DNA of 64,000 nt from a virus. Below the pieces are notes generated by a model. It had not been told where the DNA came from and did no database searches. It saw only the letters and a program-made list of their open reading frames with translations. The position numbers and the translations under genes were made by a program. The stretch's first letter is position 1, and every line of letters begins with the position of its first letter. The DNA is taken from IMG/VR virus record IMGVR_UViG_3300037319_000172, positions 32,001-96,000 of that record. One strand, given 5' to 3'. Below, piece after piece: positions 30,947 through 58,321 of this stretch.

Positions 30947-31204
30947 TTAATCCCCTGCCATTTCGACAAGTTCTTTCAATTTCATTAATTTATCGCACTT
31001 CTCATACTCTTCCAATCTTTCGAAATACTGAACTAAGATATCGATAAATTCGCTTCTTTGTCCAATACCGTGAGGTATCTCGATTATATCATTTCCCTCT
31101 TTGAAAACGACAAATCTATTCACTGTCTTTGTGAAGTTACGTGTTATTGTGTAATACGAAGATCTCATTAAAGAGTCTCTGTCTTCTCCTAGGATATCTT
31201 TCAT
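30947..31204 (-). CDS. Small protein with C-terminal UVR-like motif
   Basis: YFERLEEYEKCDKL. Confidence 0.7.
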   Translation of the reverse strand: MKDILGEDRDSLMRSSYYTITRNFTKTVNRFVVFKEGNDIIEIPHGIGQRSEFIDILVQYFERLEEYEKCDKLMKLKELVEMAGD

Positions 31205-31312
31205 TTGATTGATTTATTTTTATACTCTGCCATTATATTCTATATATTAAGTAGTGCCTTGTGGTACTGACATAATATGAATTAAAGTATAATGATATTA
31301 TATTATCAAATG

Positions 31313-31501
31313 TTATTCCTGGTTATTAAATTTGTTTTCAACGTACTTTGCTTTTTGCATTTTAGTACGCTTCTCGACTGAAGGTTTCGTATAATCTTTT
31401 CCTTCTCTAAGGGCTTTAGTTTGCCCTGTTCTGTTTACTTTATATTTGAATGACTTTAAAGCCTTTTCAATGTTTCCTTTTTCTACTTTTATTATTAACA
31501 T
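31313..31501 (-). CDS. rpsU: Phage-encoded ribosomal protein bS21
   Basis: MLIIKV..NIEKALKSFK.K...L R....KPSV.KR...KA.Y; Bacteroidota-type, 62 aa. Confidence 0.92.
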   Translation of the reverse strand: MLIIKVEKGNIEKALKSFKYKVNRTGQTKALREGKDYTKPSVEKRTKMQKAKYVENKFNNQE

Positions 31502-31749
31502 TCTAGTTTGTCAATGATTTTTTTAATATTAGAACATTTCTCATATTCCTCGCATCCTTTAAAAAAGTTTAATATGTTAGTTAACGCTTCAACCTTCTCT
31601 AAAGGATCTGTGTTACTTTTAATAGCTCGATCTTCGTCATTAATAACTGCATTGTAAATCATGTTCATCATTGTTTCTTTGGAACCTTCCTGCAGATTTT
31701 CAATTCTGTTTGAATCATTACCATCGTATGTGTCATCTAGCTCATGCAT
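31495..31749 (-). CDS. Small protein with C-terminal UVR-like motif
   Basis: FFKGCEEYEKCSNI. Confidence 0.7.
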   Translation of the reverse strand: MHELDDTYDGNDSNRIENLQEGSKETMMNMIYNAVINDEDRAIKSNTDPLEKVEALTNILNFFKGCEEYEKCSNIKKIIDKLEC

Positions 31750-32536
31750 TGTCTAACTCTTTAATTTTTTTAATGTGTTCTAATTGTTTTTCGTTTAATG
31801 TAATATTTGATGTTCTTAATTTAACCATCAAATTACCGTATTGGTTGGTATTATATATCGGAAATCCCATACCAACAATTCTTAAAATTTTACCATCAAA
31901 TGAGTTCTTAGGTACCTTTATCTTTACGCTATTAACTTTAGTTGTAACTGTAAAGTCTCCTCCTAATAACATATCATAGAACGGCATATTATAATCTAAC
32001 CATATATCTCCATTAGTTACTATCATCTCAGGATCAGGCATTATATTCATTATTAGAATAGCGTCTCCGTGTGGAGCTCCTGTATTTATAGGATGTGGCA
32101 TTCCCTTTCCATTCAATTTTAGTCTTGCTCCTTCATGAATTCCTTTAGGAATTCTTACATTGAAAACGTTTTGACCTGTATTTATTTTTCTAGTTGTACC
32201 ACTAAATACTTCTTCTAATGTAAGTTTTATTCTAAAGGTAATATCGTTTCCTCTAGCTCTTTGATTAAAAACATCATCGAACATATTTGAAAAGCCTCCA
32301 TTGTTGTTTCGAAACATGTCATAAAAACCAGAATTGCTTTCGATACTATTTTTAATATCGTATTCTTTTTTCTTGGTTGAGTCGTTTAAAGTATCGTAAG
32401 CTTCAGATATCTTTTTAAATTTATCCTCAGATCCTCCCACATCAGGATGGTGCTTCTTGACTAAGTTTCTGTAAGACTTTTTAATCTCACTAGCAGATGC
32501 CTCCTTATTTATACCAAGAACCTCATAGTAACTCAT
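31742..32536 (-). CDS. dnaJ: DnaJ-class co-chaperone (class B, CbpA-like)
   Basis: YYEVLG...HHPD J-domain plus DnaJ C-terminal domains; no zinc finger. Confidence 0.92.
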   Translation of the reverse strand: MSYYEVLGINKEASASEIKKSYRNLVKKHHPDVGGSEDKFKKISEAYDTLNDSTKKKEYDIKNSIESNSGFYDMFRNNNGGFSNMFDDVFNQRARGNDITFRIKLTLEEVFSGTTRKINTGQNVFNVRIPKGIHEGARLKLNGKGMPHPINTGAPHGDAILIMNIMPDPEMIVTNGDIWLDYNMPFYDMLLGGDFTVTTKVNSVKIKVPKNSFDGKILRIVGMGFPIYNTNQYGNLMVKLRTSNITLNEKQLEHIKKIKELDNA

Positions 32537-32538
32537 TA

Positions 32539-32712
32539 CTATTTGTCTTCTTTAGTTGGAGCAGGTCTCTGTTGTTTTGCAGGTTTCTTTGATTTGTTAG
32601 CTTCTTTAATTTGATTTCTCTTAAAGTTAACGTCTCTTTTCTGAGAATTCTCCATAAGTTGAGCTATTCTCTCTAATGATACTGCGATTCTTTCTACTTG
32701 TTCTTCTGTCAT
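32539..32712 (-). CDS. Small hypothetical protein (57 aa)
   Basis: MTEEQVERIAVSLERIAQLME...; GATATATA just upstream; below the ORF track cutoff. Confidence 0.6.
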   Translation of the reverse strand: MTEEQVERIAVSLERIAQLMENSQKRDVNFKRNQIKEANKSKKPAKQQRPAPTKEDK

Positions 32713-32735
32713 GGTTTATTATATATCTTATATTG

Positions 32736-33005
32736 TTACTGGAACAATTCCATTTTCTTTTTAAGCTTTGCACACTTTTCGTATTCCTCTAATTCCTGAA
32801 AGTAAAACATAGTCTCTTCTATAATGTTTAGAATGATATCGGGATCCCGTGTTTTATCCGCGTCGATTCCATGTTTGATTATAGCGTCATAGTTAGCGCG
32901 TGCAAGGCGGTCCTTGAGGTTCTCGAGGTGATCGATGTCTTCTTGTGTAGGTTCTTCATTTTCGTAATCCTCATTAAAGTCTTGTTCAAATTCAAAATCG
33001 TCCAT
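32736..33005 (-). CDS. Acidic small protein with C-terminal UVR-like motif
   Basis: YFQELEEYEKCAKL; has its own class I promoter. Confidence 0.7.
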   Translation of the reverse strand: MDDFEFEQDFNEDYENEEPTQEDIDHLENLKDRLARANYDAIIKHGIDADKTRDPDIILNIIEETMFYFQELEEYEKCAKLKKKMELFQ

Positions 33006-33016
33006 GTTGTATGTGT

Positions 33017-33054
33017 TTATTAATTATAAGTAAATATAATCATTTTAATTGATA
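33017..33054 (-). promoter_or_regulatory. Class I promoter repeat, copy 4
   Basis: rc TATCAATTAAAATGATTATATTTACTTATAATTAATAA. Confidence 0.8.
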
Positions 33055-33088
33055 TAAAAAAATCCTGGTGAAAAACTTTCATTTATTT

Positions 33089-33814
33089 TTAAATAATTTC
33101 CATGTTTGACATTTTTAACATGACATTCATGGTAGCTTTTACATCTCCTTCGCAATATTTCATAATGTTCTCTATATTACCATTCCAATAGTGTTCAGAA
33201 ACTTCGTAGTTTTTCATAGCATCTTTTGGTGATGGTATATTAAATAGATTACAAATCAAATCTAATGATGAACTGTTATATCCACCGAACTTCCAAATTT
33301 CATATGTATCTAATAGACAGTTTTCCCATGGTTTCTGTTTTTGAAAGTGAAACATAGTAGGCGGCATTATACCATTTACTAAGGATCTCTTTACAATCCA
33401 AGGCATATCGAATTTCTTTATGTTATGTCCTATTAGTTTTACACTAGGATTTTTATTAAATACTGCACGCATAGTTCCGTTAAACTCTTCTAGTATTTTA
33501 TTTTCATCTTCTCCATAAAAAGATTTAATCTTAGAACCTATTGGCATTCCTATTTCATCAAAAGAAATCTGACCTATAGAAATAGTATTAATCTTTCCGA
33601 ATTCAGCGTGAATGCTTGCATTCTTTTCATATAGTTCGGCGTCTGTTAAGCCTTCATGTCCTTCTTCATATTTTCGAATACTCTCAGCTTTCTTTAACCA
33701 AAGATCGTGTAATCCTTCGTTTGCATTCTTTTTTAAATCCGATAAGGTTTTGTATTGTGAGCATGTTTCTATATCAATAAATAACATTCCCTTTAGTTCA
33801 CTTGAATTATACAT
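33089..33814 (-). CDS. 3'-5' exonuclease (PolB-exo-like DEDDy family)
   Basis: FIDIET, GHNIKKFD.P, LDT...W, YCEGDV. Confidence 0.88.
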   Translation of the reverse strand: MYNSSELKGMLFIDIETCSQYKTLSDLKKNANEGLHDLWLKKAESIRKYEEGHEGLTDAELYEKNASIHAEFGKINTISIGQISFDEIGMPIGSKIKSFYGEDENKILEEFNGTMRAVFNKNPSVKLIGHNIKKFDMPWIVKRSLVNGIMPPTMFHFQKQKPWENCLLDTYEIWKFGGYNSSSLDLICNLFNIPSPKDAMKNYEVSEHYWNGNIENIMKYCEGDVKATMNVMLKMSNMEII

Positions 33815-33816
33815 GT

Positions 33817-34071
33817 TTAGTAGTATTTAACGTCGTCGTATGTTAGACCGATATCTCGAATAGATACTGGATATTTTGTAGATGCTCCTTGTGTTAATTC
33901 ATTTTCATAAGATATTATTGTAAAATATTTCTCATTATGTAATTTAGTTAAACTATCGCTTGTCGCGATAATGGAACCTTTAATAACACTTCCTGCGAAT
34001 CTAAAGAAGTATACTCCTCCTATTTTAGGAGACTTTACTGTGATTTTTCTTTGTATCTTTTTCTTTGCCAT
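33817..34071 (-). CDS. Hypothetical protein (start revised to MAKKKIQ)
   Basis: Class II promoter at 34078-34104 lies inside the longer ORF call, just upstream of ATG 34071. Confidence 0.55.
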   Translation of the reverse strand: MAKKKIQRKITVKSPKIGGVYFFRFAGSVIKGSIIATSDSLTKLHNEKYFTIISYENELTQGASTKYPVSIRDIGLTYDDVKYY

Positions 34072-34102
34072 ATACATATTATACAATGTAATTAGAAAAG
34101 GT

Positions 34103-34336
34103 TTATAAATCGTTCCATGAGGAATGTTCCCTAGCCTCACGGATCCTTGTATAAACTTCATAATTGACATTAATCTCTAAGAATCCTCCAGTAATACTTC
34201 CTGGTAAATCTTTAGGATTAATCCAATAATATGGAAGCCTATTAGTTCTTTCGTTGATAAAATCAAATAATGCATCTACCTCCATATGGTGGACGTATAT
34301 TACAATATTCATACAATTCATATTTGGGTATGCCAT
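34103..34336 (-). CDS. Hypothetical protein
   Basis: 77 aa ORF in operon. Confidence 0.55.
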   Translation of the reverse strand: MAYPNMNCMNIVIYVHHMEVDALFDFINERTNRLPYYWINPKDLPGSITGGFLEINVNYEVYTRIREAREHSSWNDL

Positions 34337-34339
34337 AGT

Positions 34340-34933
34340 TTATTTATAATGTCCTCCACCTAACCAAAGAACGAATGATTTTCTAATACCCTTAGTTACG
34401 GGTCTAACTGAATGAACTAGATAACTTGGAAATAATACGACAGTACCTTTTCCTCTTGGAGCAATAAGATTATTAGTATTTAGGCTTTCTCCTCCCATCC
34501 AGAAACAAAGGTCTCCTCCTTCGTATTCGCTTGAATCAGATAACTGAACTGTTATTGATATTTTTCTAACAGACATACTATCGTTTCCAACATCTTGATG
34601 CCAGTCATATTTCCCTAGTTCGTCAGCATTGTATTCAGTATATTGTATTAATTCAGGGGCTGAAGTTGCATCAAATTTCCACATTGTGTCATTCGCTTCG
34701 CTAGCGAATACTATTAGTTTTTCGTACAACCAATTCCACTCTGTAGTTTGTGGAATCCATTTTATATTTGATTTACGATCAGGTGTTATTCCTCCATCTG
34801 TCACTGCTCTGACGTAATCTAGATTATTAACGCCGTCTTCAATCCATCTTAATTCCTCAGATGTGAATCCTTTATCAAACCAATAATAGTCCACTGCTTT
34901 GTTTTGATTAGGTTCGAATATATTACTTCTCAT
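34340..34933 (-). CDS. 2OG-Fe(II) oxygenase (prolyl/lysyl hydroxylase-like, PKHD-type)
   Basis: WHQD...RKIS..QLS..EYEGG...FPS...HSVRPVTKGIRKS. Confidence 0.92.
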   Translation of the reverse strand: MRSNIFEPNQNKAVDYYWFDKGFTSEELRWIEDGVNNLDYVRAVTDGGITPDRKSNIKWIPQTTEWNWLYEKLIVFASEANDTMWKFDATSAPELIQYTEYNADELGKYDWHQDVGNDSMSVRKISITVQLSDSSEYEGGDLCFWMGGESLNTNNLIAPRGKGTVVLFPSYLVHSVRPVTKGIRKSFVLWLGGGHYK

Positions 34934-36809
34934 TTTCGTTATATGTTATATTAACTATTCCTTCTTCTTCACCATACCTTGATTCTGTATTTATAGGATA
35001 GCTTGGATTCTCTTCATATGCCCAGTCATGTTGTCCTAACTCTTCAAATCTTAATTTTATCTTTTCGTTATAATACATTGATATAGTTCGGGTTCTTCTT
35101 TGAATATCTGCTCTAGATAAATCATGAGTGTTCCTGTGCCCTGCATTACTATATAGAAATTGAATGTAACTTAGTTTAGGTATCTTACACATTAATGTAT
35201 GTAAAAAGGTTCTAACGATTAATTCATAATCATCAACAACTGTTAAACTTCTGTTATGTCCTCCTATTTCGAAATATGTAGTTCTTCTCCATGCTCTAAT
35301 GTGATTAGGCACTCCAACAATATGTCTTATTGTTTTAGGATTGATATTCTGTTGATTAGCAGGTGATAACATTCTACCTTGATATTCTTCATCTCTATAG
35401 TTACCGTATCCTAATGCAAATCCAGGTTCGTATTTATGATTCTCCCATTGTTCATTTACTTCTGCAGTATCTCCGTAAAAGAATCCGCATTCAGGATGTT
35501 TTTGTGCTGCCTTGTGTAAATCTTCAGCACATGTTTCCGCTAATAGATCGTCATGATCTAGTTCTGCAAGAATATATCCTTTAGCCATTACATTAGATCT
35601 CCATTTAACTTCTCCAATAACTCCACCTGATTTTTCTCTAAAGTCATACACTCTAACTCTTGGATCGTTTTTCGCAATCTCTTCAGCTATTTTTAGTGTT
35701 TTACCTCCATCAGTAGAATCATTCATTAATATCCATTCCCAGTTTCCATAAGATTGTCTAGCAACTGATTCGTATGTGTTCCATAACTTATCTCCTGTAT
35801 TATAAATAGGAGTAGTAAATGATATTAAGCTCTGATCATTTAAATTAGTAGGATCTAACATCGCGTTTTCTGAAACACTATATGCGATATCACCAACTAG
35901 GTTCATGTCTCCGTCATCATCTATGTTTATCCACTTTCTTCTAAATTGAAGAGGTAAACTGCAAAGTGTAGGAAATGAATCAGAACTTTCTCCTCTAGTA
36001 ACTATAGAGTCTGGTTTAAATTCAGAAATAACTTTACTTATATTATCATCATTTTTAACATACATTACTGTTAAATTATTATCTTCATAATCCAATACCT
36101 TTGATGTCTTTAACTGAGGTCTTCCTTCACCGACATACAACACTCTTGGTAGTTTAGGAGTTGACTCCTTTTGTAATTTATTATAGTGTGAAAGTATTTC
36201 ATCTATCCAAACGAAGCGACTCGGGTGATCCTTGTAAACTTCATCAATAAAGAATCCGTCTGCTGCATAATCTGCAGTGAATCCATATTCATCAAAAAGA
36301 TCTCCTCTTAATAATACTTGAGCGATATCTGTTTTCTGATAACCTGTATTTTGTGGAGTTGCTTCCCTATATTTTAATCCTGTAAAATCTTTACCATTGA
36401 CATCTTGTCCGACAACAATCATTACTTTATCTGAATTACTAGGAATCGTTAAATGTTCTTCTATTCTTTGATAAAAATCGGAATGCATTATATTATCATC
36501 ATCTAGTAAATAAAACCAACCAGATCCTCGAGTAACCATATCGGATTCGTGTGAAACTATATGTCTTATTAAGTCAGTAGTTTCAGGATACATCATCCCT
36601 CCTTTTTTACCTTTGATAAAATGTATTGTTGTATTTTCTTGATCTAATTCTGCAAGTACCTCTGCGTCAATATCCTTAAGCGATCCTGTATCAAACATGA
36701 TGTGCCAATGGATATCTACATTTGCTGTTTTAGAATTATCAAAAACTGTAGGTTTGATTTTTAAAAGATTAGACGTACGGGTACACCTTGTTATTACATT
36801 AATTTTCAT
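34923..36809 (-). CDS. Two-domain GT-A (GT2-like) glycosyltransferase
   Basis: N-terminal domain with YLLDDDN and ADG.F; C-terminal domain with TPIYN, NDSTD, ELDHDD, DDYEL. Confidence 0.88.
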   Translation of the reverse strand: MKINVITRCTRTSNLLKIKPTVFDNSKTANVDIHWHIMFDTGSLKDIDAEVLAELDQENTTIHFIKGKKGGMMYPETTDLIRHIVSHESDMVTRGSGWFYLLDDDNIMHSDFYQRIEEHLTIPSNSDKVMIVVGQDVNGKDFTGLKYREATPQNTGYQKTDIAQVLLRGDLFDEYGFTADYAADGFFIDEVYKDHPSRFVWIDEILSHYNKLQKESTPKLPRVLYVGEGRPQLKTSKVLDYEDNNLTVMYVKNDDNISKVISEFKPDSIVTRGESSDSFPTLCSLPLQFRRKWINIDDDGDMNLVGDIAYSVSENAMLDPTNLNDQSLISFTTPIYNTGDKLWNTYESVARQSYGNWEWILMNDSTDGGKTLKIAEEIAKNDPRVRVYDFREKSGGVIGEVKWRSNVMAKGYILAELDHDDLLAETCAEDLHKAAQKHPECGFFYGDTAEVNEQWENHKYEPGFALGYGNYRDEEYQGRMLSPANQQNINPKTIRHIVGVPNHIRAWRRTTYFEIGGHNRSLTVVDDYELIVRTFLHTLMCKIPKLSYIQFLYSNAGHRNTHDLSRADIQRRTRTISMYYNEKIKLRFEELGQHDWAYEENPSYPINTESRYGEEEGIVNITYNENEK

Positions 36810-36819
36810 TTAGTATGGT

Positions 36820-37758
36820 TTATTGTTGTATGTCAAAAAAGAACATGTGAAAAAATCGTGAGTTATCTATTGCGTCTCCGAAGTATTCGGTTGCTGCGTG
36901 TATCTGTGATGAGTTGAAAATTACGAGTCTATTATATACGTTACCAATATCATCTATCTTTTCAAATAGAGTTCCATCGTAAAAGTTCATAGCTTCGTTT
37001 GTTCCTTTAAATGTGTGAAAGTATTCATCTCCCATTCTAGATTCCTGTCCTGGAAAAGAATTTATACCTGTTACTTTACTTCGGTACATTGATGTTCCAG
37101 TAGGTGCAGGTGCGTTTGGTGTTAAGTATACCATTGCGGCATACATTTGAGAATCTACATGATAAACAATAGGCTGATCAGCAGTACAATATTGAAATAC
37201 ACCATTAGCGTATCCTACATTGTTCCAGTTTGTTATCTTTCTACCTAATATTTCTTCTAACTTTTCTTTAGTTCCATCTAGTATAAATCTAGAATTTGAT
37301 CTCTGTCCTTTATGATAATCCGATGGAGTGTATTCAAGGTTTTGCATCGCATATTCTCTAACAAGATCTGGATCTGCATAGAAATTATCTACAACAATGA
37401 CATCTTTATCTGTTGGGTTAAACCCTGATGAAACAGCTGCCCATTTTCCTATAGAAACAAACTCTTCAGGTTCTTCACCATTAAAACTTATTCTTAATTT
37501 AGAATTTATTAAATGTTTGGGAATAGATATGTTGAATCCAGTGCAAAAGTCTAAAGATCCTTCATAGTATCTAGATACATCTATCCTAGGTTCCCATTCT
37601 ATTTTTAATTTAATATCTTCTATTAATAAATCTATAAAGTTAATTTTTCTATCGCTGTTTGTAGAACCTATCCAACCTCTTACATTCCATGTTGAATCTA
37701 ATCCTTCAGATACTTCATCAACATTAAGTAATATATTTTTAATATTAGTAGTATGCAT
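36820..37758 (-). CDS. 2OG-Fe(II) oxygenase-like protein (DUF6445-like C-terminal domain)
   Basis: VVDNFYADPDLVR, HVD, YLTP, YNRLVIF...HAA, R-F-F-H; extra N-terminal beta domain. Confidence 0.75.
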   Translation of the reverse strand: MHTTNIKNILLNVDEVSEGLDSTWNVRGWIGSTNSDRKINFIDLLIEDIKLKIEWEPRIDVSRYYEGSLDFCTGFNISIPKHLINSKLRISFNGEEPEEFVSIGKWAAVSSGFNPTDKDVIVVDNFYADPDLVREYAMQNLEYTPSDYHKGQRSNSRFILDGTKEKLEEILGRKITNWNNVGYANGVFQYCTADQPIVYHVDSQMYAAMVYLTPNAPAPTGTSMYRSKVTGINSFPGQESRMGDEYFHTFKGTNEAMNFYDGTLFEKIDDIGNVYNRLVIFNSSQIHAATEYFGDAIDNSRFFHMFFFDIQQ

Positions 37759-37774
37759 TCTTATTTCTTTAATT

Positions 37775-37801
37775 ATTATACGATTAATTTGCTATTTGTT
37801 T
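37775..37801 (-). promoter_or_regulatory. Class II promoter for the oxygenase/glycosyltransferase/oxygenase operon
   Basis: rc AAAC AAATAGCAAATTAATCG TATAAT. Confidence 0.75.
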
Positions 37802-37810
37802 ATATATTAC

Positions 37811-37842
37811 AAAAAAAAGGATCCCATTTCTGAGATCCTTTT
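37811..37842 (-). terminator. Intrinsic terminator after the collagen cluster
   Basis: rc AAAAGGATCTCAGAAATGGGATCCTTTTTTTT. Confidence 0.85.
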
Positions 37843-37868
37843 AACTATTTATATTTACTATTTATTAT

Positions 37869-40832: not shown

Positions 40833-40875
40833 TTGTATTATTTGTTTATTTTTATATTATTATATTTAAAGTAGC

Positions 40876-43398: not shown

Positions 43399-43450
43399 AA
43401 TTGTTTATTTTATTTTTATATGTTATGTTATATATTTTAAATATATGTGT

Positions 43451-46204: not shown

Positions 46205-46238
46205 ATCTTTATTTAGTTATTTTTATTATTTATCAGTT

Positions 46239-46781: not shown

Positions 46782-46809
46782 AGTTTGATTTATCTTATTT
46801 ATTTTTTAT

Positions 46810-47574: not shown

Positions 47575-47698
47575 ATATTTTTCTTTTTTTTATAATTTAT
47601 TTGACGAAAAAGCGTGTCTACTCTTTCAATACTGATTTTATATATCTGGTTTAGTAGTGTTCATTAGTTTAATAGGGCCATAATATTGTAATATAATA

Positions 47699-50261: not shown

Positions 50262-50290
50262 AAACAGTTATTGTATTTATTTATATATTT

Positions 50291-50318
50291 AAAAAAGAAA
50301 GGGTCCCGAAGGACCCTT
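50291..50318 (-). terminator. Intrinsic terminator with cUUCGg tetraloop
   Basis: rc AAGGGTCCTTCGGGACCCTTTCTTTTTT. Confidence 0.9.
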
Positions 50319-50355
50319 AAATTAAAACTATGAATTAAATACTTTCGTATTTTTC

Positions 50356-51717
50356 TTAGAATTGGTAAACGAATACTACTGTATCCTCTGAATCGATTGT
50401 GTACCCTGGAGTAGACAATGTAACTGCTGCTCCTGCGATAGATTCTGCAAATACTCTTGATCCGTTAACGAATACATCTACTAGAGATAATTGAGCCTCT
50501 TGGACTGTATTTGCTAATGTATATACTAAACCATTTCCTGCGAAAGATTCAGTTGCCATTTGATCATCTTCGATTATAGCTGCTTCTACAGTATCTAATC
50601 TTCCAGCTAAAGCTGCATCAGCGTTAGCTAAATTGATTACATCCTCGTTAGTTGCAGAAATCTCAGAAGATAGTTCTGTTTGTAAATCAAGTACATCTGC
50701 ATTTGTTGCAGAAATCTCAGAAGATATTTCTCCATCAATTCTTGTAACATCAGAGTTAGTATCTGCAATCTCATTGTTTAAATTCAAGATTACTGCTGCT
50801 AAAGCGTCGTCATTTACAGTATCAACCGCGTTGATGATAGAAACTACATCTGCGAAAGAGTCTGGATCTGCGTCTACTGCGTTTAATATAGATGCGAACT
50901 TGTTTGAAGTTGCAAGTACCTCAGTAGATAAAGCTCCATCAATTCTTGTAACATCTGCATTAGTATCAGCAATTTCACTTGCTAATTCTCCATTAAGTCT
51001 TGTAACCTCAGAGTTAGTTGCAGCTATTTCACCTGCTACTTCCCCATCAATTCTTATAACTTCAGAGTTAGTTGCAGAAATCTCTGCAGATAAAGCTACT
51101 TCTAAAGCGTCAACTGAATCAACTAAATCTCCAGAAACTTCTCCTAATCTAGCATCGATAGAAGTTACATCTCCATTAGTCGCATTGATTTCAGTAGCTA
51201 ATTCTCCGTTAAGTCTTGTAACTTCTGAATTAGTTGCTGTGATTTCAGCAGCTATTGCAGCGTCGATTCTTGTAACATCTGAATTAGTTGCAGCTATCTC
51301 GTTGTTTAAATTCGAGATTACTACTGCTAAAGCGTCGTCATTTACAGTATCAACCGCGTTGATGATAGAAACTACATCTGCGAAAGAGTCTGGATCTGCA
51401 CCAACTGCATCTAAAATAGCAGAAAACTGAGTTGAAGTAGAAAGTATCTCTGTAGATAATGCTTCATCAATTCTTGTAACGTCTGCGTTAGTATCAGCAA
51501 TTTCACTTGCTAATTCTCCTTCAACTCTTACAAAATCAGAACTAGTTGCAGAAATCTCTGCTTCTAAATCGTTATTAACTCTTATAGCTTCAGTAGATAT
51601 TTCATCTTTAACGTACCTTGCGATGTCTGCCGTATTGGCAATCTCAAAGTTAGAAGTTGCCCCCCAGTTTACTGTGCTTAAAAAATCCTTAATTTGTTTT
51701 GAACGAATTTGTGCCAT
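50356..51717 (-). CDS. Acidic coiled-coil fibre protein with EI(S/A)ATN(S/A)(D/E)VTRID repeats
   Basis: About 18-aa repeats; DPDSFADV segments; C-terminal VFVNG domain. Confidence 0.75.
   Translation of the reverse strand: MAQIRSKQIKDFLSTVNWGATSNFEIANTADIARYVKDEISTEAIRVNNDLEAEISATSSDFVRVEGELASEIADTNADVTRIDEALSTEILSTSTQFSAILDAVGADPDSFADVVSIINAVDTVNDDALAVVISNLNNEIAATNSDVTRIDAAIAAEITATNSEVTRLNGELATEINATNGDVTSIDARLGEVSGDLVDSVDALEVALSAEISATNSEVIRIDGEVAGEIAATNSEVTRLNGELASEIADTNADVTRIDGALSTEVLATSNKFASILNAVDADPDSFADVVSIINAVDTVNDDALAAVILNLNNEIADTNSDVTRIDGEISSEISATNADVLDLQTELSSEISATNEDVINLANADAALAGRLDTVEAAIIEDDQMATESFAGNGLVYTLANTVQEAQLSLVDVFVNGSRVFAESIAGAAVTLSTPGYTIDSEDTVVFVYQF
50796..51399. repeat. 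76-bp exact direct repeat inside the coiled-coil gene (50796-50871 and 51324-51399)
   Basis: CTGCTAAAGCGTCGTC...TCTGGATCTGC occurs twice, 528 nt apart. Confidence 0.9.
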
Positions 51718-51880
51718 ATTGTTTATTGTGTTATATTTTGGCCTAACAACCTTATTGTCGTTAGTGATTTATATATCTCACATAAGCGGGTGGACGTGTA
51801 TATAATACACGTAATATGTTAATAGAATTCAAAAAAATGAAAAAATGAGAAAACCCAATTAATATAGACCGATTAAGCTC

Positions 51881-53080
51881 CTATAATAGATCTGCTCGTG
51901 CAGTCTCGTATGTCAAGTTGACTTCGTCACCTGCCTCTAAATCATACCCTGCTATGTTTCCGTTCCAGTATAATATGTGGCCTGCTCTGATTTCAGATAT
52001 ATCAACAGGAGTTAACCCTCCATCATTTGAGAAGTAAGAGTCTTTGTCTTTATTACCATTTCCTACTTCTACCGTTATTCCGTTTACTTCAACATGCACA
52101 TAAGATTCTGCATACGGATTATATGTTAATTGTACTGTTGTATTTGCTGAGTTACCTATTGTTGCAGCTGGGTTTATATTCTTATCAACAAATGCTAATA
52201 TTCCTTCAATATTGTTATTTACATCTAATTGAAAAGTAATATCCTGTCCAATTTCCCATATTGTTTTAGTAACACCAGGGCCTGTTGACTGCGTCTCGAA
52301 TGTAATATCTAATTTTATACCATCGGCATCTTCACTATCTCCTCCTCCTGTTATAAGATCAAGTCTTTCCCATGCTGTTATTTTATAAATAGCATATAGA
52401 TTTGTTGGTTCCATATCAAATATTGTTAATATTCCTGTAGCTCCATAAGATACTCTATTTATTAAAAAGTTTTCTAATGATGATAATCTAATACCATTTG
52501 AATCTAAATTTTTAAATATAATTGAAGTTACTTCGCTTGGGGTTTTTGAATCAACTGAAACACTTCCTTGGAAATTAGGATCTGAACCATCTATATTTTC
52601 TATCTGAAATACTCCTTCAACTGAAGACTTTTGTATAATTGTTGTCGTGTTATTATTATTTTCAGGATTATTAGGGTTTGCGTTTGAAACAAGAGATCCT
52701 AATTTTAAATTAGGAAATACATAACTTTTAGATTGAGGATAGTAGTTTTCGTAGAATATACTAACCTGTACTGTTATCAGTCCTACTCCTAAGTTTAAAG
52801 ATTGACTTTCATCTATTAAAAAACTTATTTTTCCGGAATTCCCTGCTCTATCTACTGTAAGTTGAGAAGAAACTCCTGGAATTGGAGGTTCCGCGTATTG
52901 TAATACTTTTCTATCTTCTATAAAAACAGCTACTCCAAATGAAGTTGGTTGGTTTAAATTTAATATAGTTCCTATATAGTCTTTATATAGTATAATGTCA
53001 TATGTTTGTGAATTACCAGAAATAACGTTGATTTCTTCTTCAATAAATGCTATTATATCGTCGTTTGCTACGTAAGCCAT
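51881..53080 (-). CDS. Virion structural protein
   Basis: C-terminal VEVNGI...YFSNDGG...LYWNG..AGYDL domain shared with the 46810 gene. Confidence 0.6.
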   Translation of the reverse strand: MAYVANDDIIAFIEEEINVISGNSQTYDIILYKDYIGTILNLNQPTSFGVAVFIEDRKVLQYAEPPIPGVSSQLTVDRAGNSGKISFLIDESQSLNLGVGLITVQVSIFYENYYPQSKSYVFPNLKLGSLVSNANPNNPENNNNTTTIIQKSSVEGVFQIENIDGSDPNFQGSVSVDSKTPSEVTSIIFKNLDSNGIRLSSLENFLINRVSYGATGILTIFDMEPTNLYAIYKITAWERLDLITGGGDSEDADGIKLDITFETQSTGPGVTKTIWEIGQDITFQLDVNNNIEGILAFVDKNINPAATIGNSANTTVQLTYNPYAESYVHVEVNGITVEVGNGNKDKDSYFSNDGGLTPVDISEIRAGHILYWNGNIAGYDLEAGDEVNLTYETARADLL

Positions 53081-53122
53081 TATTTATTAAGTATTTTTTA
53101 TATATATTCTAATAAATTAACT

Positions 53123-53806
53123 CTATTTTGTTAATTTATGATATAAAGAGTATCTTGATATTGGGAGTATACATTCTTCGTGATCTTCGTTTAATTTGTG
53201 ATCTATTCTCCAGAATCTTTTATCGTCTATTTCTTTTTTTGAATTTACTATGTATTCTATTATATCTGGAACCCCTTTCAAATCGATATCTACCTTCTTA
53301 AGTATTAAATCATCCCATTCTCCTACTAATTTATAAGGGTTATTATATGAATAAGTTAATATGTTAGTATTTTTATCTATTATAAAAACAATGCCTTTTA
53401 TTTTTGTTGGCATAGTTCTAGGAATTTCTGTTACTGTCAGTTTTGAAGCGATAGATCTCCACTTTACCCTAATCATTCTAAATAAAGATTCGAATTCTTC
53501 AATTGCAATTTCTACTAATTGGTATATGTGAAATATGTCATCTTCGGTTTCAGGATATTCGTAGTCGAGAGACATCGTGTCTAGATTTATCCCAGTAAGT
53601 ACTCTGAGCCTGTCATCTATCTCGTTCTTTTTATTTTTAAGTTTATATAAGTCTTCTAATTGGTATTCTACTTCAGTTAATGCCTCATGTAAAAATCCGG
53701 CTTTAATCATAGACATTAACTTTTGAGTTGCCCCTAATAGTTTATATCTTTTTAATTCAAAGTCGAAAGGTAAATCGGTTAGCCAGTTTTTATGTAATAT
53801 CTTCAT
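53123..53806 (-). CDS. Conserved hypothetical protein
   Basis: WLT..PFDFELKRYKLL N-terminal motif recalled from Bacteroidota hypotheticals. Confidence 0.6.
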   Translation of the reverse strand: MKILHKNWLTDLPFDFELKRYKLLGATQKLMSMIKAGFLHEALTEVEYQLEDLYKLKNKKNEIDDRLRVLTGINLDTMSLDYEYPETEDDIFHIYQLVEIAIEEFESLFRMIRVKWRSIASKLTVTEIPRTMPTKIKGIVFIIDKNTNILTYSYNNPYKLVGEWDDLILKKVDIDLKGVPDIIEYIVNSKKEIDDKRFWRIDHKLNEDHEECILPISRYSLYHKLTK

Positions 53807-53864
53807 CAGATATATTTATCCGAATATCGTAGGCGTATAGTGTGATTATGAAGGTAATATTGTA

Positions 53865-54179
53865 TTATAAATGTTCTTTGTCTTTTTCTTCTTTTATTAC
53901 TTTAAAGGTATCTGCCGCTTCAGTACCTTCTAGAGCAAGACCCCATTGTAATATAAACCAATGTGCTTCTTTTAAAGCCATTTCTTTGTTTAACTTTAAA
54001 ACTTCTCGAATTCTGCTAACACTATGGTTTATGAAAGCTTCTTCTCTTTCTTTAGTAGTTCGGTATTCCATATACCATTGTGGATTTCCTTTAACATCTT
54101 CGTAAGTTACACCATGATGTTTAAGTTGTTCATTTATTAATTCAATAAACAGTTCTCTTGTTTTCTCTCGCTTTGTCAT
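53865..54179 (-). CDS. Hypothetical protein
   Basis: 104 aa; WF.LQWGL motif. Confidence 0.65.
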   Translation of the reverse strand: MTKREKTRELFIELINEQLKHHGVTYEDVKGNPQWYMEYRTTKEREEAFINHSVSRIREVLKLNKEMALKEAHWFILQWGLALEGTEAADTFKVIKEEKDKEHL

Positions 54180-54204
54180 ATTACTTTATTATTAGATTAT
54201 TATA

Positions 54205-54399
54205 TTATAATGATATAAGACTGGCGAAAGTGTCCATGTCGCTCAAACGAATAAAATCGTCTGAAGTTAAGGAAACCATCACCATGTCAGTCATAGGATT
54301 AAAAGAAATCTCAATCATATCTTCTAGATTATTATAATCTTTTAATATGTTAGTTAGATACTCTATTTTATTCTGTCTTATGTAAAAATATACTTTCAT
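54205..54399 (-). CDS. Hypothetical protein
   Basis: 64 aa downstream of clpP. Confidence 0.55.
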   Translation of the reverse strand: MKVYFYIRQNKIEYLTNILKDYNNLEDMIEISFNPMTDMVMVSLTSDDFIRLSDMDTFASLISL

Positions 54400-54416
54400 A
54401 ATCCTATATTATTATA

Positions 54417-55088
54417 TTATCTTTTTTTAATTATCTCATCAATAATTCCATACTTCTTAGCTTCTTCTGCATTTAACCAAAAATCTCTGGTTGCATCTTT
54501 CATAACTACTTCCGCTTTTTTACCGCAATATTCTCCTAACAATACAAATAATTCCTTATTTACATCTTGCCAGTTTTTCCAATCTATTTCAGCATCTTGT
54601 ATATTACCACTAAATCCTCCAGAAGACTGGTGTAACATAGTAGTAGAGTGACGTAGAGACATTCTCTTACCCTTGGTTCCTGCTCCTAATAATACTGAAC
54701 CCATTGACGCGGCCATACCAGTGTTGATCGTACGTATATCACATTTAATGTAATCCATAACATCTACCATAGAAAGACCAGATTTAACTGAACCTCCTGG
54801 TGAATCAACATGCATTGTAATATCCTCTGCTGATGTAGTATCTAGAAACATTAATTGTGCCTGAACTATTGTAGACATATTGTCGTTAACTGGACCTGCT
54901 ACCCAAAGTAATCTATCCATCATCAATCTTGAAAATATATCCATTTGAGTTGCTCTAAGTTCTCTCTCTTCTAAAATGTAAGGAGTCATTGAGTTCTCTA
55001 CTTGTTTCTCGTAATAATTCATGTTAGAAGAACTAACATTATGATCGCTCATTGCGAACTTCCTAAAATCTTTACTATTGTAATCCAT
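54417..55088 (-). CDS. clpP: ATP-dependent Clp protease proteolytic subunit
   Basis: DIFSRLMMDR, SPGG, AASMG (Ser), MLHQ (His), RDFW (Asp); Bacteroidota-like N-terminus. Confidence 0.97.
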   Translation of the reverse strand: MDYNSKDFRKFAMSDHNVSSSNMNYYEKQVENSMTPYILEERELRATQMDIFSRLMMDRLLWVAGPVNDNMSTIVQAQLMFLDTTSAEDITMHVDSPGGSVKSGLSMVDVMDYIKCDIRTINTGMAASMGSVLLGAGTKGKRMSLRHSTTMLHQSSGGFSGNIQDAEIDWKNWQDVNKELFVLLGEYCGKKAEVVMKDATRDFWLNAEEAKKYGIIDEIIKKR

Positions 55089-55386
55089 GTTCTATTATTA
55101 GTTTTGATATTTTTTCACAAGTCTCGTATTCCTCGTTTTCTTTATAATACTCTAGAGCTTTCGTTAACGACTTAACATAACCTTCTCCTTCTAATTTTGC
55201 TTCCATAACATCTCCTCCAGGATCTACTAAGTAGCATAATACATCTAAGCTAAAATTGCTAGTTAAATTAAATTCTATAAATTCCAATACTCTCTTATAA
55301 AATCCTTCTTTATCTTTTATTGGTCCTTCTAGAGATGTTTCTATTCCATCGGCATTAATATCAAAATACGGCGTATCTCCTATCAT
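55075..55386 (-). CDS. Small protein with C-terminal UVR-like motif, overlapping the clpP start
   Basis: YYKENEEYETCEKI. Confidence 0.7.
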   Translation of the reverse strand: MIGDTPYFDINADGIETSLEGPIKDKEGFYKRVLEFIEFNLTSNFSLDVLCYLVDPGGDVMEAKLEGEGYVKSLTKALEYYKENEEYETCEKISKLIIEHGLQ

Positions 55387-55390
55387 TGTA

Positions 55391-56245
55391 TTATGTTAAT
55401 CTAATATTAAGATAGTCTCTTAATATATTATTATAAGTTATTTGTTTGCTTCCAGTAGAAACTGCTTCATTAATCTCTTTCATGAAGTTAATACCATGAT
55501 CAGTTATTAACATATTATCTTTTGTTAATGTACATAAAGGATTTTCTATATTCATTGTGTAGTTCTTACCTTGATCTTCGCTTTCTGCGACTATCTTAGT
55601 AGCCATATCGAAGTGTCTTTCGTAAAAGTGTATATTATCAGCACAATGGTAGTAAGTTCCTAATTCTAACTCAGGATATGTTTCTAACAACCATAATCTC
55701 ATGTGTTGGTGTATAAAACTAAAATAAGGTGCATCGAATGTAAGACCATAGAATATATCATTAGATCTCATTTGAACTTTCATGTTTAGTTTATTGTCTC
55801 TTATAAAAAAGTTGAGGTACATTGTACATACGAAATCTTTATTACCTTCAAACTGAAACTTAGGTTGATTTAAAAAAGATACAGCTTGTCTAGTATTCTT
55901 GTCTTTCTTTAAAGATTCTAACGCAAATTGTAATTGACCACCAAAAAGAAGGTAACCGTAATTTGAATTTATATTATTAGTTCCGGTATTCGTTAAAGTA
56001 GACCACATCTTTGAAAATTGACCGATATAATCAACATCACGATCTCTATTAAGATACCAACATAGTTCTCCACCGAAATACTTCCAGTTAAAAGCTCTAC
56101 TATCAAAATGTGCTATTGTTTTAGTTGGATCAAATTCTATAGTTTGAATAGTGTGTTCCTTAACCTTCATATCTCGAGGTTGAGAAACATCACCATCATT
56201 TTCTATATTTAAAATTAAATCTTTGAATTTATTATTAAATGTCAT
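55391..56245 (-). CDS. Thymidylate synthase-superfamily enzyme, dCMP hydroxymethylase (T4 gp42)-like
   Basis: INSNYG, DFVCT, MRSNDIFYGLTFD (Asp at the base-specificity site), HFYERHF. Confidence 0.75.
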   Translation of the reverse strand: MTFNNKFKDLILNIENDGDVSQPRDMKVKEHTIQTIEFDPTKTIAHFDSRAFNWKYFGGELCWYLNRDRDVDYIGQFSKMWSTLTNTGTNNINSNYGYLLFGGQLQFALESLKKDKNTRQAVSFLNQPKFQFEGNKDFVCTMYLNFFIRDNKLNMKVQMRSNDIFYGLTFDAPYFSFIHQHMRLWLLETYPELELGTYYHCADNIHFYERHFDMATKIVAESEDQGKNYTMNIENPLCTLTKDNMLITDHGINFMKEINEAVSTGSKQITYNNILRDYLNIRLT

Positions 56246-56274
56246 ATATTATATTATTAAAGTAACTTACTAAT

Positions 56275-56301
56275 ATTATACTACTATTTTAAAGAAAGTT
56301 T
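56275..56301 (-). promoter_or_regulatory. Class II promoter for the TS-like/UVR/clpP operon
   Basis: rc AAAC TTTCTTTAAAATAGTAG TATAAT, overlapping the clpC stop. Confidence 0.7.
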
Positions 56302-58260
56302 ATCTTCTCCTTTTTTATGTGAGATTGAATATGCTTTAGTTCCAATAATCATTGATTTATCAATTATAGCATCCGCTAAAATATCTTCAACATAATTTTG
56401 GACTGCTCTCTTAAGAGGACGTGCACCATATAAAGGATCGTATCCTTGTTCTGCTAAAAATCCTTTTGCTGCTTTATTTATTTTAATAGTATATCCTTGC
56501 TTGTCTAGTCTTTTTATTACTTTATTCAATTCAATATCTACAATTTTAATCATATCATCTCTTGTTAAAGAATCAAATAAAATCATATCATCTAATCTAT
56601 TTAAGAATTCAGGTGCAAACTTGTTTTTAAGTTCTTTTCTGATAATAGTTTCAACATGTGATTTATTAGAAGCGATAGATGTTTTACTTTCAAATCCAAT
56701 TCCTGCTCCAAAATCTGATACTTTCTTAGCACCAACATTTGATGTCATTATAATAATTGTATTTGTAAAATCTACAGTTCTTCCTAGAGAATCAGTTAAT
56801 CTACCTTCGTCTAAAACTTGTAATAAAGTATTGAATGTATCAGGGTGAGCTTTTTCAACCTCATCAAATAATACAACAGAATAAGGCTTACGTCTTACTG
56901 CTTCTGTTAATTGACCACCAGATTCATGTCCAACATAACCAGGAGGAGATCCAATTAATTTACTTACATTAAACTTTTCTTGATATTCTGACATATCAAT
57001 TCTAATAATAGAATCTTCGTCTCCGAAATAATAATTAGCTAACGCTTTTACTGTTTCAGTTTTACCTACACCAGTTGGTCCGATAAACATAAAGGATCCT
57101 ATTGGTTTTTTAGATGAACTAACTCCAGTTCTAGATCTTTTAATTACTTTACATAAACCAGTAACTGCAGAATCTTGACCTATTATCATTTCTTTTAAAT
57201 TAGCTTCCATATCCATAATGATTTGACTTTCGTCATCTGTCATTCTTGAAATTGGAATTCCAGTAGCATCAGATATTGTTTCTGCAATATCATCATAGGT
57301 TACCGGTCTTCTATTGATTCGTAAATCATGTTGCCATTTTGTTACAGTCGCATCAATAGCATCTCTTTGCTTAATTTCAGCATCTCTGAATTTAGCAGCC
57401 TTTTCGTAGTCTTGTTCCTCAACAGCGTCTACTTTTTGTTGTTTAATTTCTTCAACTCTTTTTTCAGACTCTTTAATATGTTCTGGCATTTTAACCTGAG
57501 CTAAATGTACTTTAGCGCCAGCTTCATCCATTAAATCAATTGCTTTATCTGGTAATTCTCTAGAAGTAACATATCTATCTGATAATTCAACACAAGCTTT
57601 AAGAGCTTCTTCAGTATATTCAACAGCATGATATTCTTCGTAGTTTCCTTTAATTCTATTTAATATCTCAATAGAATCCTCAATTGAAGGTGGATCAATA
57701 AAAACTTCTTGGAATCTTCTAGTAAGAGCTCCGTCAGTTTCTATGTTTTCTCTATATTCATCTAATGTAGTTGCACCAATACATTGTACCTGTCCTCTCG
57801 CAAGGGCTGGTTTTAAAATGTTACTAGCATCTAATGAACCACTAACCCCTCCAGCTCCGACTAAAGTATGTATCTCATCAATAAATACTATAATGTCTGG
57901 ATTTGATTTTAATTCATCAACTATCTTTTTCATTCTTTCTTCAAACTCTCCACGATATTTCGTACCTGCAACAATTGTCGCCATGTTTAAAGATATTATC
58001 TTTTTATTAGTAAGAGTCATCGCAACTTTCTTATCTACGATTCTTTGAGCGATTGCTTCTACTAGTGCAGTTTTACCTACACCAGGATCTCCTAATATAA
58101 TAGGGTTGTTTTTCTTTCTTCGAGAAAGTATTTGACAAATCCTATAAACTTCTTTGTCTCTTCCAATAATTGGATCTAATTTACCTGCCGCAGCAGCTGC
58201 AGTTAAGTCTTCTCCGAACTGGTCAATTAATGGGGTCTTAACTTGTTTCTTATTTGCCAT
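56284..58260 (-). CDS. clpC: ClpC-type AAA+ unfoldase lacking the N-terminal domain
   Basis: Two AAA+ modules (GDPGVGKT/IDE and GPTGVGKT/FDE), UVR middle domain QDYEKAAKFRD, IGF loop GIGF; protein begins at TPLIDQFGEDLT. Confidence 0.93.
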   Translation of the reverse strand: MANKKQVKTPLIDQFGEDLTAAAAAGKLDPIIGRDKEVYRICQILSRRKKNNPIILGDPGVGKTALVEAIAQRIVDKKVAMTLTNKKIISLNMATIVAGTKYRGEFEERMKKIVDELKSNPDIIVFIDEIHTLVGAGGVSGSLDASNILKPALARGQVQCIGATTLDEYRENIETDGALTRRFQEVFIDPPSIEDSIEILNRIKGNYEEYHAVEYTEEALKACVELSDRYVTSRELPDKAIDLMDEAGAKVHLAQVKMPEHIKESEKRVEEIKQQKVDAVEEQDYEKAAKFRDAEIKQRDAIDATVTKWQHDLRINRRPVTYDDIAETISDATGIPISRMTDDESQIIMDMEANLKEMIIGQDSAVTGLCKVIKRSRTGVSSSKKPIGSFMFIGPTGVGKTETVKALANYYFGDEDSIIRIDMSEYQEKFNVSKLIGSPPGYVGHESGGQLTEAVRRKPYSVVLFDEVEKAHPDTFNTLLQVLDEGRLTDSLGRTVDFTNTIIIMTSNVGAKKVSDFGAGIGFESKTSIASNKSHVETIIRKELKNKFAPEFLNRLDDMILFDSLTRDDMIKIVDIELNKVIKRLDKQGYTIKINKAAKGFLAEQGYDPLYGARPLKRAVQNYVEDILADAIIDKSMIIGTKAYSISHKKGEDKLSLK

Positions 58261-58283
58261 ATTTCTAATTAATATTTATAAGT

Positions 58284-58310: not shown

Positions 58311-58321
58311 CGGCATTTTAT

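What the first reader, a model, noticed from the sequence alone, without database searches (positions are those of the whole stretch)
30947..58260. Phage ClpC/ClpP protease plus four small proteins with a UVR-like motif mimicking the ClpC middle domain: candidate modular adaptor system
Seen: four otherwise dissimilar 84-103 aa ORFs end in the same motif [YF][FY]xxxEEYE[KT]CxxI/L: 30947..31204 YFERLEEYEKCDKL, 31495..31749 FFKGCEEYEKCSNI, 32736..33005 YFQELEEYEKCAKL and 55075..55386 YYKENEEYETCEKI. This aligns with the middle domain of the ClpC in this window (AVEEQDYEKAAKFRD). One of them overlaps the clpP start. The ClpC lacks the N-terminal domain but keeps the ClpP-docking IGF loop. Established: UVR (UvrB/UvrC-type) hairpins pair head-to-head; in ClpC the middle domain controls the resting state and contacts adaptors, and the N-domain is the usual adaptor/substrate dock. 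Inference: the phage may have replaced the N-domain with interchangeable in-trans adaptors (variable N-terminus for substrate choice, UVR tail for docking) expressed from different promoter classes, giving stage-specific proteolysis. They might instead hijack or inhibit host ClpC or UvrB/UvrC. The invariant Cys, where ClpC has Ala, is unexplained.
Basis: partly seen in the sequence, partly recalled or inferred. Interest (0 to 1): 0.88.

Follow-up and report, generated by a model that had tools for sequence, protein, structure and literature searches.

The report
Phage hairpin-tailed proteins beside N-less ClpC
Four small genes of a large marine phage end in the same Cys-bearing helical hairpin, which marks a very large undescribed phage protein family that is not tied to the phage's own ClpC-ClpP protease; only the copy inside the protease gene cluster remains a candidate regulator.

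Summary
Four minus-strand ORFs (85, 84, 89 and 103 aa) end in [YF][FY]xxxEEYE[KT]Cxx[LI]. These are the only four such motifs on the 109.6-kb contig, against about 0.01 expected by chance. The ClpC is a natural N-domain-less form with an intact M-domain and IGF loop, and clpP overlaps one of the small genes.

- **UVR similarity:** the tails are homologous to each other, but Pfam UVR hits none of them. The likeness to the ClpC M-domain covers 8-10 residues and is not significant.
- **Size of the family:** the module defines at least 1,240 clusters of small acidic phage proteins.
- **No tie to ClpC:** complete crAss-like genomes with no ClpC or ClpP carry one copy, placed before terL. Complete jumbo phages with an N-less ClpC carry none.
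- **sp4 exception:** only the sp4 subfamily travels with the protease. It sits in the clpC-thyA-sp4-clpP cluster in 27 of 27 ClpC-seeded loci.

Binding could not be tested because the complex predictor was closed. Earlier follow-ups of this scan reached the same partial verdict on other genomes.

The parts
30947..31204 (-). sp1, 85 aa, pI 5.0; hairpin module encoded at 30950-31078. Full-length homolog of a roughly 90-99-aa family found directly upstream of terL in crAss-like phages.
31495..31749 (-). sp2, 84 aa, pI 4.4; hairpin module at 31498-31617. It overlaps the dnaJ-like stop by 8 nt and the bS21 start by 7 nt.
32736..33005 (-). sp3, 89 aa, pI 4.25, with a very acidic N-terminus; hairpin module at 32739-32855.
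55075..55386 (-). sp4, 103 aa, pI 4.3; hairpin module at 55078-55200. It lies between the thyA-like gene and clpP and overlaps the clpP start by 14 nt. It is present in every ClpC-seeded locus of this lineage.
56284..58260 (-). ClpC-type double-AAA+ unfoldase, 658 aa, with no N-domain.
57382..57465 (-). UVR motif of the ClpC M-domain (residues 266-293); Y285, R292 and D293 correspond to F436, R443 and D444.
56692..56700 (-). I-G-F tripeptide of the ClpP-docking loop (residues 521-523).
55391..56245 (-). Thymidylate-synthase-like gene lying between clpC and sp4.
54417..55088 (-). ClpP peptidase, 223 aa.
   Evidence: PF00574, E 6e-57
31742..32536 (-). DnaJ-like co-chaperone (J domain plus DnaJ_C); context of sp2 and sp3.
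31313..31501 (-). Ribosomal protein bS21 homolog; context of sp1 and sp2.
58273..58280 (-). TATAAATA 12 nt upstream of the clpC ATG, preceded by a hairpin followed by a T-run. A possible T4-type late promoter; not tested.

Best explanation
The four ORFs are real genes. They are paralogous members of a very large, undescribed family of small acidic phage proteins (median 87 aa, pI about 4.9).

The family is defined by a C-terminal module of about 35 residues: helix, tight turn, helix, with a near-invariant F-x3-E-E-Y-E-K-C-x2-[LI]-x-K. I read this module as a constant protein-docking or self-association hairpin, and the unrelated N-terminal halves as carrying the specific activity (inferred). 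It resembles a UVR hairpin in shape and in a short core, but is not a detectable member of that family.

The module is a property of phages that probably infect Bacteroidota: T4-like jumbo, crAss-like and huge phages. It is not a property of phages that encode ClpC. The set of four is therefore not a dedicated adaptor kit for the phage protease.

Within this lineage only sp4 is inherited together with the N-less clpC, the thyA-like gene and clpP. The phage ClpC keeps the M-domain tip residues that lock cellular ClpC in its resting state. An engineered N-less ClpC stays proteolytically inactive until that contact is broken. sp4 is therefore the one plausible trans-acting regulator or adaptor of this ClpC-ClpP. 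This step is inferred, at roughly one chance in three.
For: - Family coherence: the tails of the four subfamilies match each other at hhalign probability 94-99% (E 1e-7 to 1e-16), while the N-terminal parts do not match.
- Family size: a tail profile finds 1,240 clusters at 50% identity in 1.84 billion proteins, almost all 40-140 aa with the module at the C-terminus. Position-specific conservation is given.
- Fold: AF2 models give helix, beta-hairpin, helix, turn, helix for both sp1 and sp4. The sp1 hairpin has pLDDT 77-87.
- Module without ClpC: three complete or nearly complete crAss-like genomes (93, 87 and 80 kb) have one copy each directly before terL, and neither ClpC nor ClpP.
- ClpC without module: complete jumbo phages of 321 and 476 kb have an N-less ClpC but no motif.
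- Phage-restricted: in 401 Bacteroidota genomes the motif appears at near-control frequency (9 against 3) and never as this family.
- sp4 linkage: an ortholog is present in 10 of 10 sp4-seeded loci and 27 of 27 ClpC-seeded loci of the lineage.
- ClpC tip residues: Y285, R292 and D293 equal F436, R443 and D444.
- Literature: those three residues make the M-domain head-to-head contacts (PMC5699869). Delta-N ClpC is not proteolytic unless that contact is abolished (PMC12583610).
Against:
- Gene order is weak evidence in tightly packed T4-like genomes. A thymidylate-synthase-like gene sits in the same cluster. In 7 loci a 279-aa gene separates sp4 from clpP, so coupling to clpP is not universal.
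- crAss-like phages could use the module on host ClpC, so the dissociation does not exclude ClpC as the hub.
- Three weak leads point to UVR:
  - The nearest Pfam-bearing ESM Atlas clusters are viral small proteins with UVR in 32% and 39% of members, at scores 0.82 and 0.84.
  - UVR appears below threshold in 2 of 49 and 1 of 149 members.
  - JGI names an sp2 ortholog McsA.
Confidence: 0.55

Rival explanations
1. All four proteins are interchangeable in-trans adaptors of the phage's N-less ClpC. The UVR-like tail docks head-to-head on the M-domain and the variable N-terminus selects substrates at different stages of infection.
For:
- The aromatic residue of the tail corresponds to F436, the key M-domain and MecA contact residue.
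- Delta-N ClpC needs its M-domain contacts broken to become active.
- Only the ClpC-bearing lineage has expanded the family to four copies.
Against: - That alignment covers only 8-10 columns, with P 0.42 over the full length and 0.03-0.07 over the M-domain alone.
- Pfam UVR hits none of the tails.
- The R-D pair of the contact is replaced by x-K.
- The family is present in complete phages without ClpC or ClpP and absent from complete phages with an N-less ClpC.
- sp1, sp2 and sp3 lie 22-25 kb away among dnaJ, bS21 and phoH.
Confidence: 0.12
2. The module docks on a host protein shared by Bacteroidota, such as host ClpC (which has the same M-domain tip) or UvrB/UvrC. The family would then be host-takeover effectors or inhibitors.
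For: - All module-bearing lineages seen point to Bacteroidota hosts. The phage ClpC is closest to Bacteroidota ClpC, and the ClpC-less carriers have crAss-type terL genes.
- The proteins are small and acidic.
- The family is absent from cellular genomes.
Against: - If a generic UVR or ClpC tip were the target, phages of Firmicutes, Actinobacteria and cyanobacteria should carry the module too. No tblastn match was found in 50,697 deposited phages. A DNA pattern scan did find one member in a 642-kb huge phage.
- No host assignment is direct.
Confidence: 0.15
3. The hairpin is only a self-association or structural element (TPR-like or a three-helix bundle) of unrelated small regulators. None of the four, sp4 included, works with Clp, and sp4's position is inherited synteny.
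For: - The weak Pfam hits are as often TPR-like or DHR-2 lobe A (14 of 149) as UVR (1 of 149).
- A Bacteroidota TPR repeat carries the same YF..EEYEKC..LY string.
- The structure searches gave only generic helical matches, with Z of 8.1 or less.
- thyA shares the same synteny, and an insertion separates sp4 from clpP in 7 loci.
Against: Invariance of the charged residues and the Cys (E, E, Y, E, K, C at 93-100%) across more than a thousand clusters is more than a packing motif needs. sp4 is retained in 27 of 27 loci although its sequence diverges to 28% identity.
Confidence: 0.2
4. The E-E-Y-E-K-C turn is a metal-binding or redox-active site, possibly completed across a dimer or by the second Cys that 20% of members carry at +10 or +12.
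For: The Cys is 100% conserved where UVR has Ala, and three Glu flank it.
Against: There is a single Cys in most members, no His, and no known metal-site pattern. Nothing was tested.
Confidence: 0.08

Closest known systems
UVR motif (Pfam PF02151), as found in the UvrB C-terminus, UvrC, McsA and the ClpC M-domain
   Same: About 35 residues, helix-turn-helix hairpin. An acidic-aromatic-acidic turn is followed by a small residue and a hydrophobic residue three positions later ([ED][YF]Ex[AC]xx[LIF]). It is used as a protein-contact element.
   Different: The HMM does not score any tail. A-A-x-L-R-D is replaced by C-x-x-[LI]-x-K. The first helix carries [YF]F instead of Ala-rich positions. The Cys is invariant. 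The module is always at the C-terminus of stand-alone small phage proteins.
ClpC-ClpP of B. subtilis and S. aureus with the adaptors MecA and McsB, and the engineered delta-N ClpC (PMC5699869, PMC12583610)
   Same: Two AAA+ rings, a short M-domain with F436/R443/D444 equivalents, an IGF-type loop, and a partner ClpP with the Pfam CLP_protease domain.
   Different: The N-domain, about 185 aa, is naturally absent. No MecA, McsA/B or ClpS homolog was seen in the small proteins scanned. The genes are phage-encoded and interrupted by a thymidylate-synthase-like gene and sp4.
Plant ClpF and bacterial McsA, which are Clp-system factors carrying a UVR motif (from my own knowledge; not tested here)
   Same: A UVR-type hairpin joined to another domain in a Clp-associated factor.
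   Different: There is no sequence relationship beyond the short core. JGI's 'McsA' label on an sp2 ortholog is an automatic name.
TPR-like helical hairpins
   Same: The hydrophobic spacing and a small residue at the helix crossing. A cellular TPR repeat carries the identical YF..EEYEKC string.
   Different: A single hairpin rather than a repeat array. Only sub-threshold Pfam hits.

Membership tests
UVR domain (PF02151) | Scores at or above the Pfam gathering cut-off (21.5 bits). | tested here: not met
   No hit for the four proteins or for 22 tails at E up to 10. The six-frame search of the whole contig finds only the ClpC M-domain at 28.4 bits. Sub-threshold hits in 2 of 49 and 1 of 149 family members.
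UVR domain (PF02151) | Conserved A-A-x-[LI]-R-D in the second helix. | tested here: not met
   The family consensus is C-x-x-[LI]-x-K. K stands at 79% where UVR has D.
UVR domain (PF02151) | Antiparallel helical hairpin of about 35 residues. | tested here: inconclusive
   AF2 predicts helix 49-63, a turn, and helix 67-82 in sp1 (pLDDT 77-87), and helices 67-83 and 87-99 in sp4 (pLDDT about 65). The structure searches gave only generic helical matches.
UVR domain (PF02151) | Profile-profile similarity to the ClpC M-domain UVR. | tested here: inconclusive
   The best local hit is on the UVR core but spans 8-10 columns, with P 0.42 over the full length and 0.03-0.07 over the M-domain alone.
ClpC adaptor (functional class: MecA, McsB, ClpS-like) | Binds ClpC and changes its ATPase or degradation activity. 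| not testable with these tools
No biochemistry is available.
ClpC adaptor (functional class) | Co-occurs with its ClpC. | tested here: not met
   Not met for the family as a whole. Met for the sp4 subfamily alone: 27 of 27 ClpC-seeded loci.
ClpC (class I Hsp100) | Two AAA+ modules, the AAA lid, the D2-small domain, an M-domain with a UVR motif, and a ClpP-docking loop. | tested here: met
   AAA E 2.6e-26, AAA_2 E 1.4e-71, AAA_lid_9, ClpB_D2-small, UVR E 5e-5. G-I-G-F is invariant across the phage and Bacteroidota sequences.
ClpC (class I Hsp100) | Clp_N N-terminal domain. | tested here: not met
   The protein starts 12 residues before the DQFGEDLT motif. Its nearest cellular homologs carry about 185 more N-terminal residues. 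The upstream ORF has no Pfam domain.
ClpP (PF00574) | CLP_protease domain over the cut-off. | tested here: met
   E 6.1e-57, 192.9 bits, residues 47-222.

The most novel reading that the evidence does not exclude
The EEYEKC hairpin is a trans-acting mimic of the ClpC M-domain tip. Phages of Bacteroidota would use it to unlock or retarget ClpC, their own N-less copy or the host's. The variable N-termini would act as substrate selectors, giving a phage-encoded modular adaptor system for an AAA+ protease.
Probability: 0.13. Interest if true: 0.85.

Novelty: new variant of a known kind. Interest (0 to 1): 0.52.

Why it matters
Two things here are undescribed as far as I could find. No paper holds the motif, and there is no Pfam or PHROG family for it.

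- **A natural N-less ClpC.** It is widespread in large phages and keeps the exact M-domain residues that hold cellular ClpC in its inactive resting state. Recent biochemistry shows that an engineered delta-N ClpC is inactive until that contact is broken. How the phage enzyme is switched on is therefore a concrete, testable question, and sp4 is the obvious first candidate.
- **A very large family with a strikingly invariant motif.** More than 1,200 clusters of small acidic phage proteins share a Cys-bearing hairpin across T4-like, crAss-like and huge phages. That suggests a common, still unknown docking target.

Showing that the family is not tied to ClpC keeps the field from annotating all members as Clp adaptors.

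Tried and rejected
- **Pfam and PHROGs** on the four proteins gave nothing.
- **Profile of the tails against PDB sequences** gave no hit at E up to 10.
- **Foldseek against PDB** with the sp1 model gave nothing below E 3. The McsA/McsB entry at rank 5 (E 4.5) is noise.
- **VIA-align wide search** gave only generic helical bundles, top Z 8.1, within the stated noise range for helical models.
- **AF2 of sp4** with 11 sequences was of low confidence (pLDDT 52), so it was used for secondary structure only.
- **tblastn of sp1, sp3, sp4 and a crAss-type member** against 50,697 deposited phages gave no meaningful match.
- **Domain fusions:** longer members (up to 256 aa) have no Pfam domain.
- **Sigma-70 promoter scan** around sp1-sp3 was no better than shuffles. 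TATAAATA is not clearly enriched in the window: 23 found against 16 expected.
- **Literature search** for phage ClpC in Bacteroidota phages gave nothing relevant.
Full report
**Observation.** The window is bases 32001-96000 of a 109.6-kb, 33% G+C viral contig. Four minus-strand ORFs sit at the stated coordinates: sp1 30947-31204, sp2 31495-31749, sp3 32736-33005 and sp4 55075-55386. Each ends in [YF][FY]xxxEEYE[KT]Cxx[LI], 11-15 residues from the stop. EE[YF]E.C occurs only these four times in all six frames of the contig. Shuffles give 0.015 and residue composition gives 0.007. Related viral contigs keep the same set at the same relative places, while the reversed-pattern control gives zero.

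**Context.** sp3, a 57-aa ORF, a DnaJ-like gene (J domain plus DnaJ_C), sp2, a bS21 homolog, sp1, phoH and RNase HII form one tightly packed minus-strand run. sp2 overlaps both of its neighbours. About 22 kb away lies clpC (658 aa), then a thymidylate-synthase-like gene, sp4, and clpP. sp4 overlaps the clpP start by 14 nt.

**The ClpC.**
- It has both AAA+ modules, the lid, the D2-small domain and a Pfam UVR match at residues 266-293.
- A six-frame search of the whole contig with the UVR model finds this site and nothing else.
- Its 80 nearest cellular relatives are all Bacteroidota ClpC at 55-59% identity. They are 840-890 aa long, about 185 residues longer at the N-terminus. The phage protein is therefore a natural N-domain-less ClpC.
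- G-I-G-F at 520-523 is invariant across the phage and host sequences.
- An ungapped phmmer alignment to B. subtilis ClpC puts phage Y285, R292 and D293 on F436, R443 and D444.
- Those three residues make the M-domain head-to-head contacts of the repressed resting state, and F436 is also needed for MecA binding (PMC5699869).
- An engineered delta-N ClpC has raised ATPase activity but no proteolytic activity unless the M-domain contact is also abolished (PMC12583610).

**Is the tail a UVR motif?** The tails of the four subfamilies are clearly homologous to one another (hhalign probability 94-99%, E 1e-7 to 1e-16). The N-terminal parts are not (probability 6% or less). Membership in UVR fails wherever it could be tested.
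- Pfam UVR hits none of the four proteins or 22 tails, even at E 10.
- It appears below threshold in 2 of 49 and 1 of 149 family members. DHR-2 lobe A, a TPR-like helical region, appears in 14 of 149.
The match covers only 8-10 columns, with P 0.42 over the full length and 0.03-0.07 over the M-domain alone.
- The tail profile finds nothing among PDB sequences.
- AF2 predicts a helix, a small beta-hairpin, a helix, a three-residue turn at x-E-E, and a helix, in both sp1 (pLDDT 67 overall, 77-87 in the hairpin) and sp4 (pLDDT 52).
- Foldseek and VIA-align return only generic helical matches.
- Weak leads toward UVR remain:
  - The nearest Pfam-bearing ESM Atlas clusters are viral small proteins with UVR in 32% and 39% of members, at scores 0.82 and 0.84.
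  - JGI labels an sp2 ortholog 'McsA'.
- A cellular TPR repeat carrying the identical YF..EEYEKC..LY string shows that the pattern is not specific to UVR.

My reading is that the tail is UVR-like in shape and in a short core that happens to include the F436-equivalent aromatic residue. Homology is unproven. The R-D pair of the ClpC contact is replaced by x-K.

**The family.**
- A profile of 74 diverse tails finds 1,240 clusters (50% identity) at E 0.001 or better among 1.84 billion proteins. The listed hits are 34-256 aa, median 87, with the module at the C-terminus.
- Over 397 members, C, E(-5) and E(-2) are 100% conserved, Y 98%, K(-1) 93%, F(-9) 92% and L/I(+3) 99%.
- 20% carry a second Cys at +10 or +12, and the median pI is 4.9.
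- There is no Pfam or PHROG family and no paper mentioning the motif.
- Deposited phages give no tblastn match. A pattern scan does find one member in the 642-kb huge phage LR756502.1, 285 kb from its ClpC-like gene.
- In 401 Bacteroidota genomes the motif occurs at near-control frequency (9 against 3) and never as this family.

**Co-occurrence with ClpC.**
- sp1 has full-length homologs (32-37% identity over 70-80 residues) in a different phage type. There the gene sits directly upstream of terL and portal in 31 of 33 loci. That terL is 40-43% identical to those of crAss-like phages.
- Three such genomes rated 93-100% complete (93, 87 and 80 kb) have exactly one module gene and neither ClpC nor ClpP.
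- Conversely, a ClpC-seeded and therefore unbiased sample of 80 viral loci shows many other lineages with an N-less ClpC (659-711 aa). These have no clpP, thyA or module gene within 5 kb.
- Whole-record scans find no motif in complete jumbo phages of 321 kb (terminal repeats) and 476 kb.
- The family and the N-less ClpC therefore dissociate in both directions.

**sp4 is the exception.**
- In the same unbiased sample, all 27 loci of the window's lineage (ClpC 68-91% identical) carry thyA-like, an sp4 ortholog and clpP. So do 10 of 10 sp4-seeded loci.
- sp4 diverges fast, down to 28% identity, while ClpC stays at 69% or more.
- In 13 loci the motif is E-[NK]-Y-E-[KR]-C, so the Cys, Tyr and last Glu are more constrained than the second Glu.
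- In 7 loci a 279-aa gene lies between sp4 and clpP. sp4 is then coupled to thyA rather than to clpP.
- Gene order in packed T4-like genomes is modest evidence, because thyA shares it. It is still the only specific link between any module protein and the protease.

**Verdict.** The most likely picture has four parts:
- a phage-wide hairpin module, used for docking or oligomerisation, on small acidic proteins;
- expansion to four copies in this lineage;
- an unknown hub that may be specific to Bacteroidota hosts or their phages;
- sp4 alone as a reasonable candidate regulator of the natural delta-N ClpC-ClpP.

Earlier follow-ups of this scan on at least four other genomes reached the same partial verdict. 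I took from one of them the lead to the delta-N ClpC paper and read that paper myself.

Noticed in passing
record behind L049 (G028), 63270-64562 and 66106-66876 of that contig: The ClpC of a related phage is split into two matches about 1.5 kb apart, with one in-frame TAG. This could be an intein, a homing-endonuclease insertion or an intron.
   Followed up: no
L226-L278 (viral contigs): N-domain-less ClpC (659-711 aa, 52-57% identical to the window's) is common in other large-phage lineages. These include complete 321-kb and 476-kb records and have no clpP within 5 kb.
   Followed up: partly
L284 and L286 (385-kb and 263-kb viral records): The single module-bearing proteins of these jumbo phages begin with M-x-K-I-N-N-Y-x-x-F-L-x-E. 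This is the same T4-like capsid-targeting-type leader that was noted elsewhere on this genome, so some family members may be packaged into heads.
   Followed up: no
L202-L204 and L206-L209, about 8175-9014 in L202: A 279-aa gene is inserted between sp4 and clpP in one sublineage. It was not identified.
   Followed up: no
window 31313-31501 and 31742-32536: The phage encodes a ribosomal protein bS21 and a DnaJ-type co-chaperone that lacks the zinc-finger region. Both are translationally coupled to sp2. The same dnaJ, module gene, bS21, sp1-like, phoH order recurs in a distant contig (L062).
   Followed up: partly
window 58273-58380: A hairpin with a T-run is followed by an exact TATAAATA 12 nt before the clpC start codon. 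This suggests a T4-type late promoter with a very short leader.
   Followed up: no
L058-L090 (crAss-like marine contigs): The neighbourhood is conserved: a Cpn10-like gene, an HU-like gene, a 180-aa phrog_16390 protein, the module gene, terL and portal. Some have a SET-domain gene nearby.
   Followed up: partly
window 55391-56245: The thymidylate-synthase-like gene scores only E 1e-18 against the Pfam model. It may be a pyrimidine hydroxymethylase rather than ThyA.
   Followed up: no
protein P0147 (126 aa, metagenomic): A crAss-type family member with an internal duplication of the 'LPFDP..EDGR..IDxVI' segment before a single E-D-Y-E-K-C hairpin.
   Followed up: no
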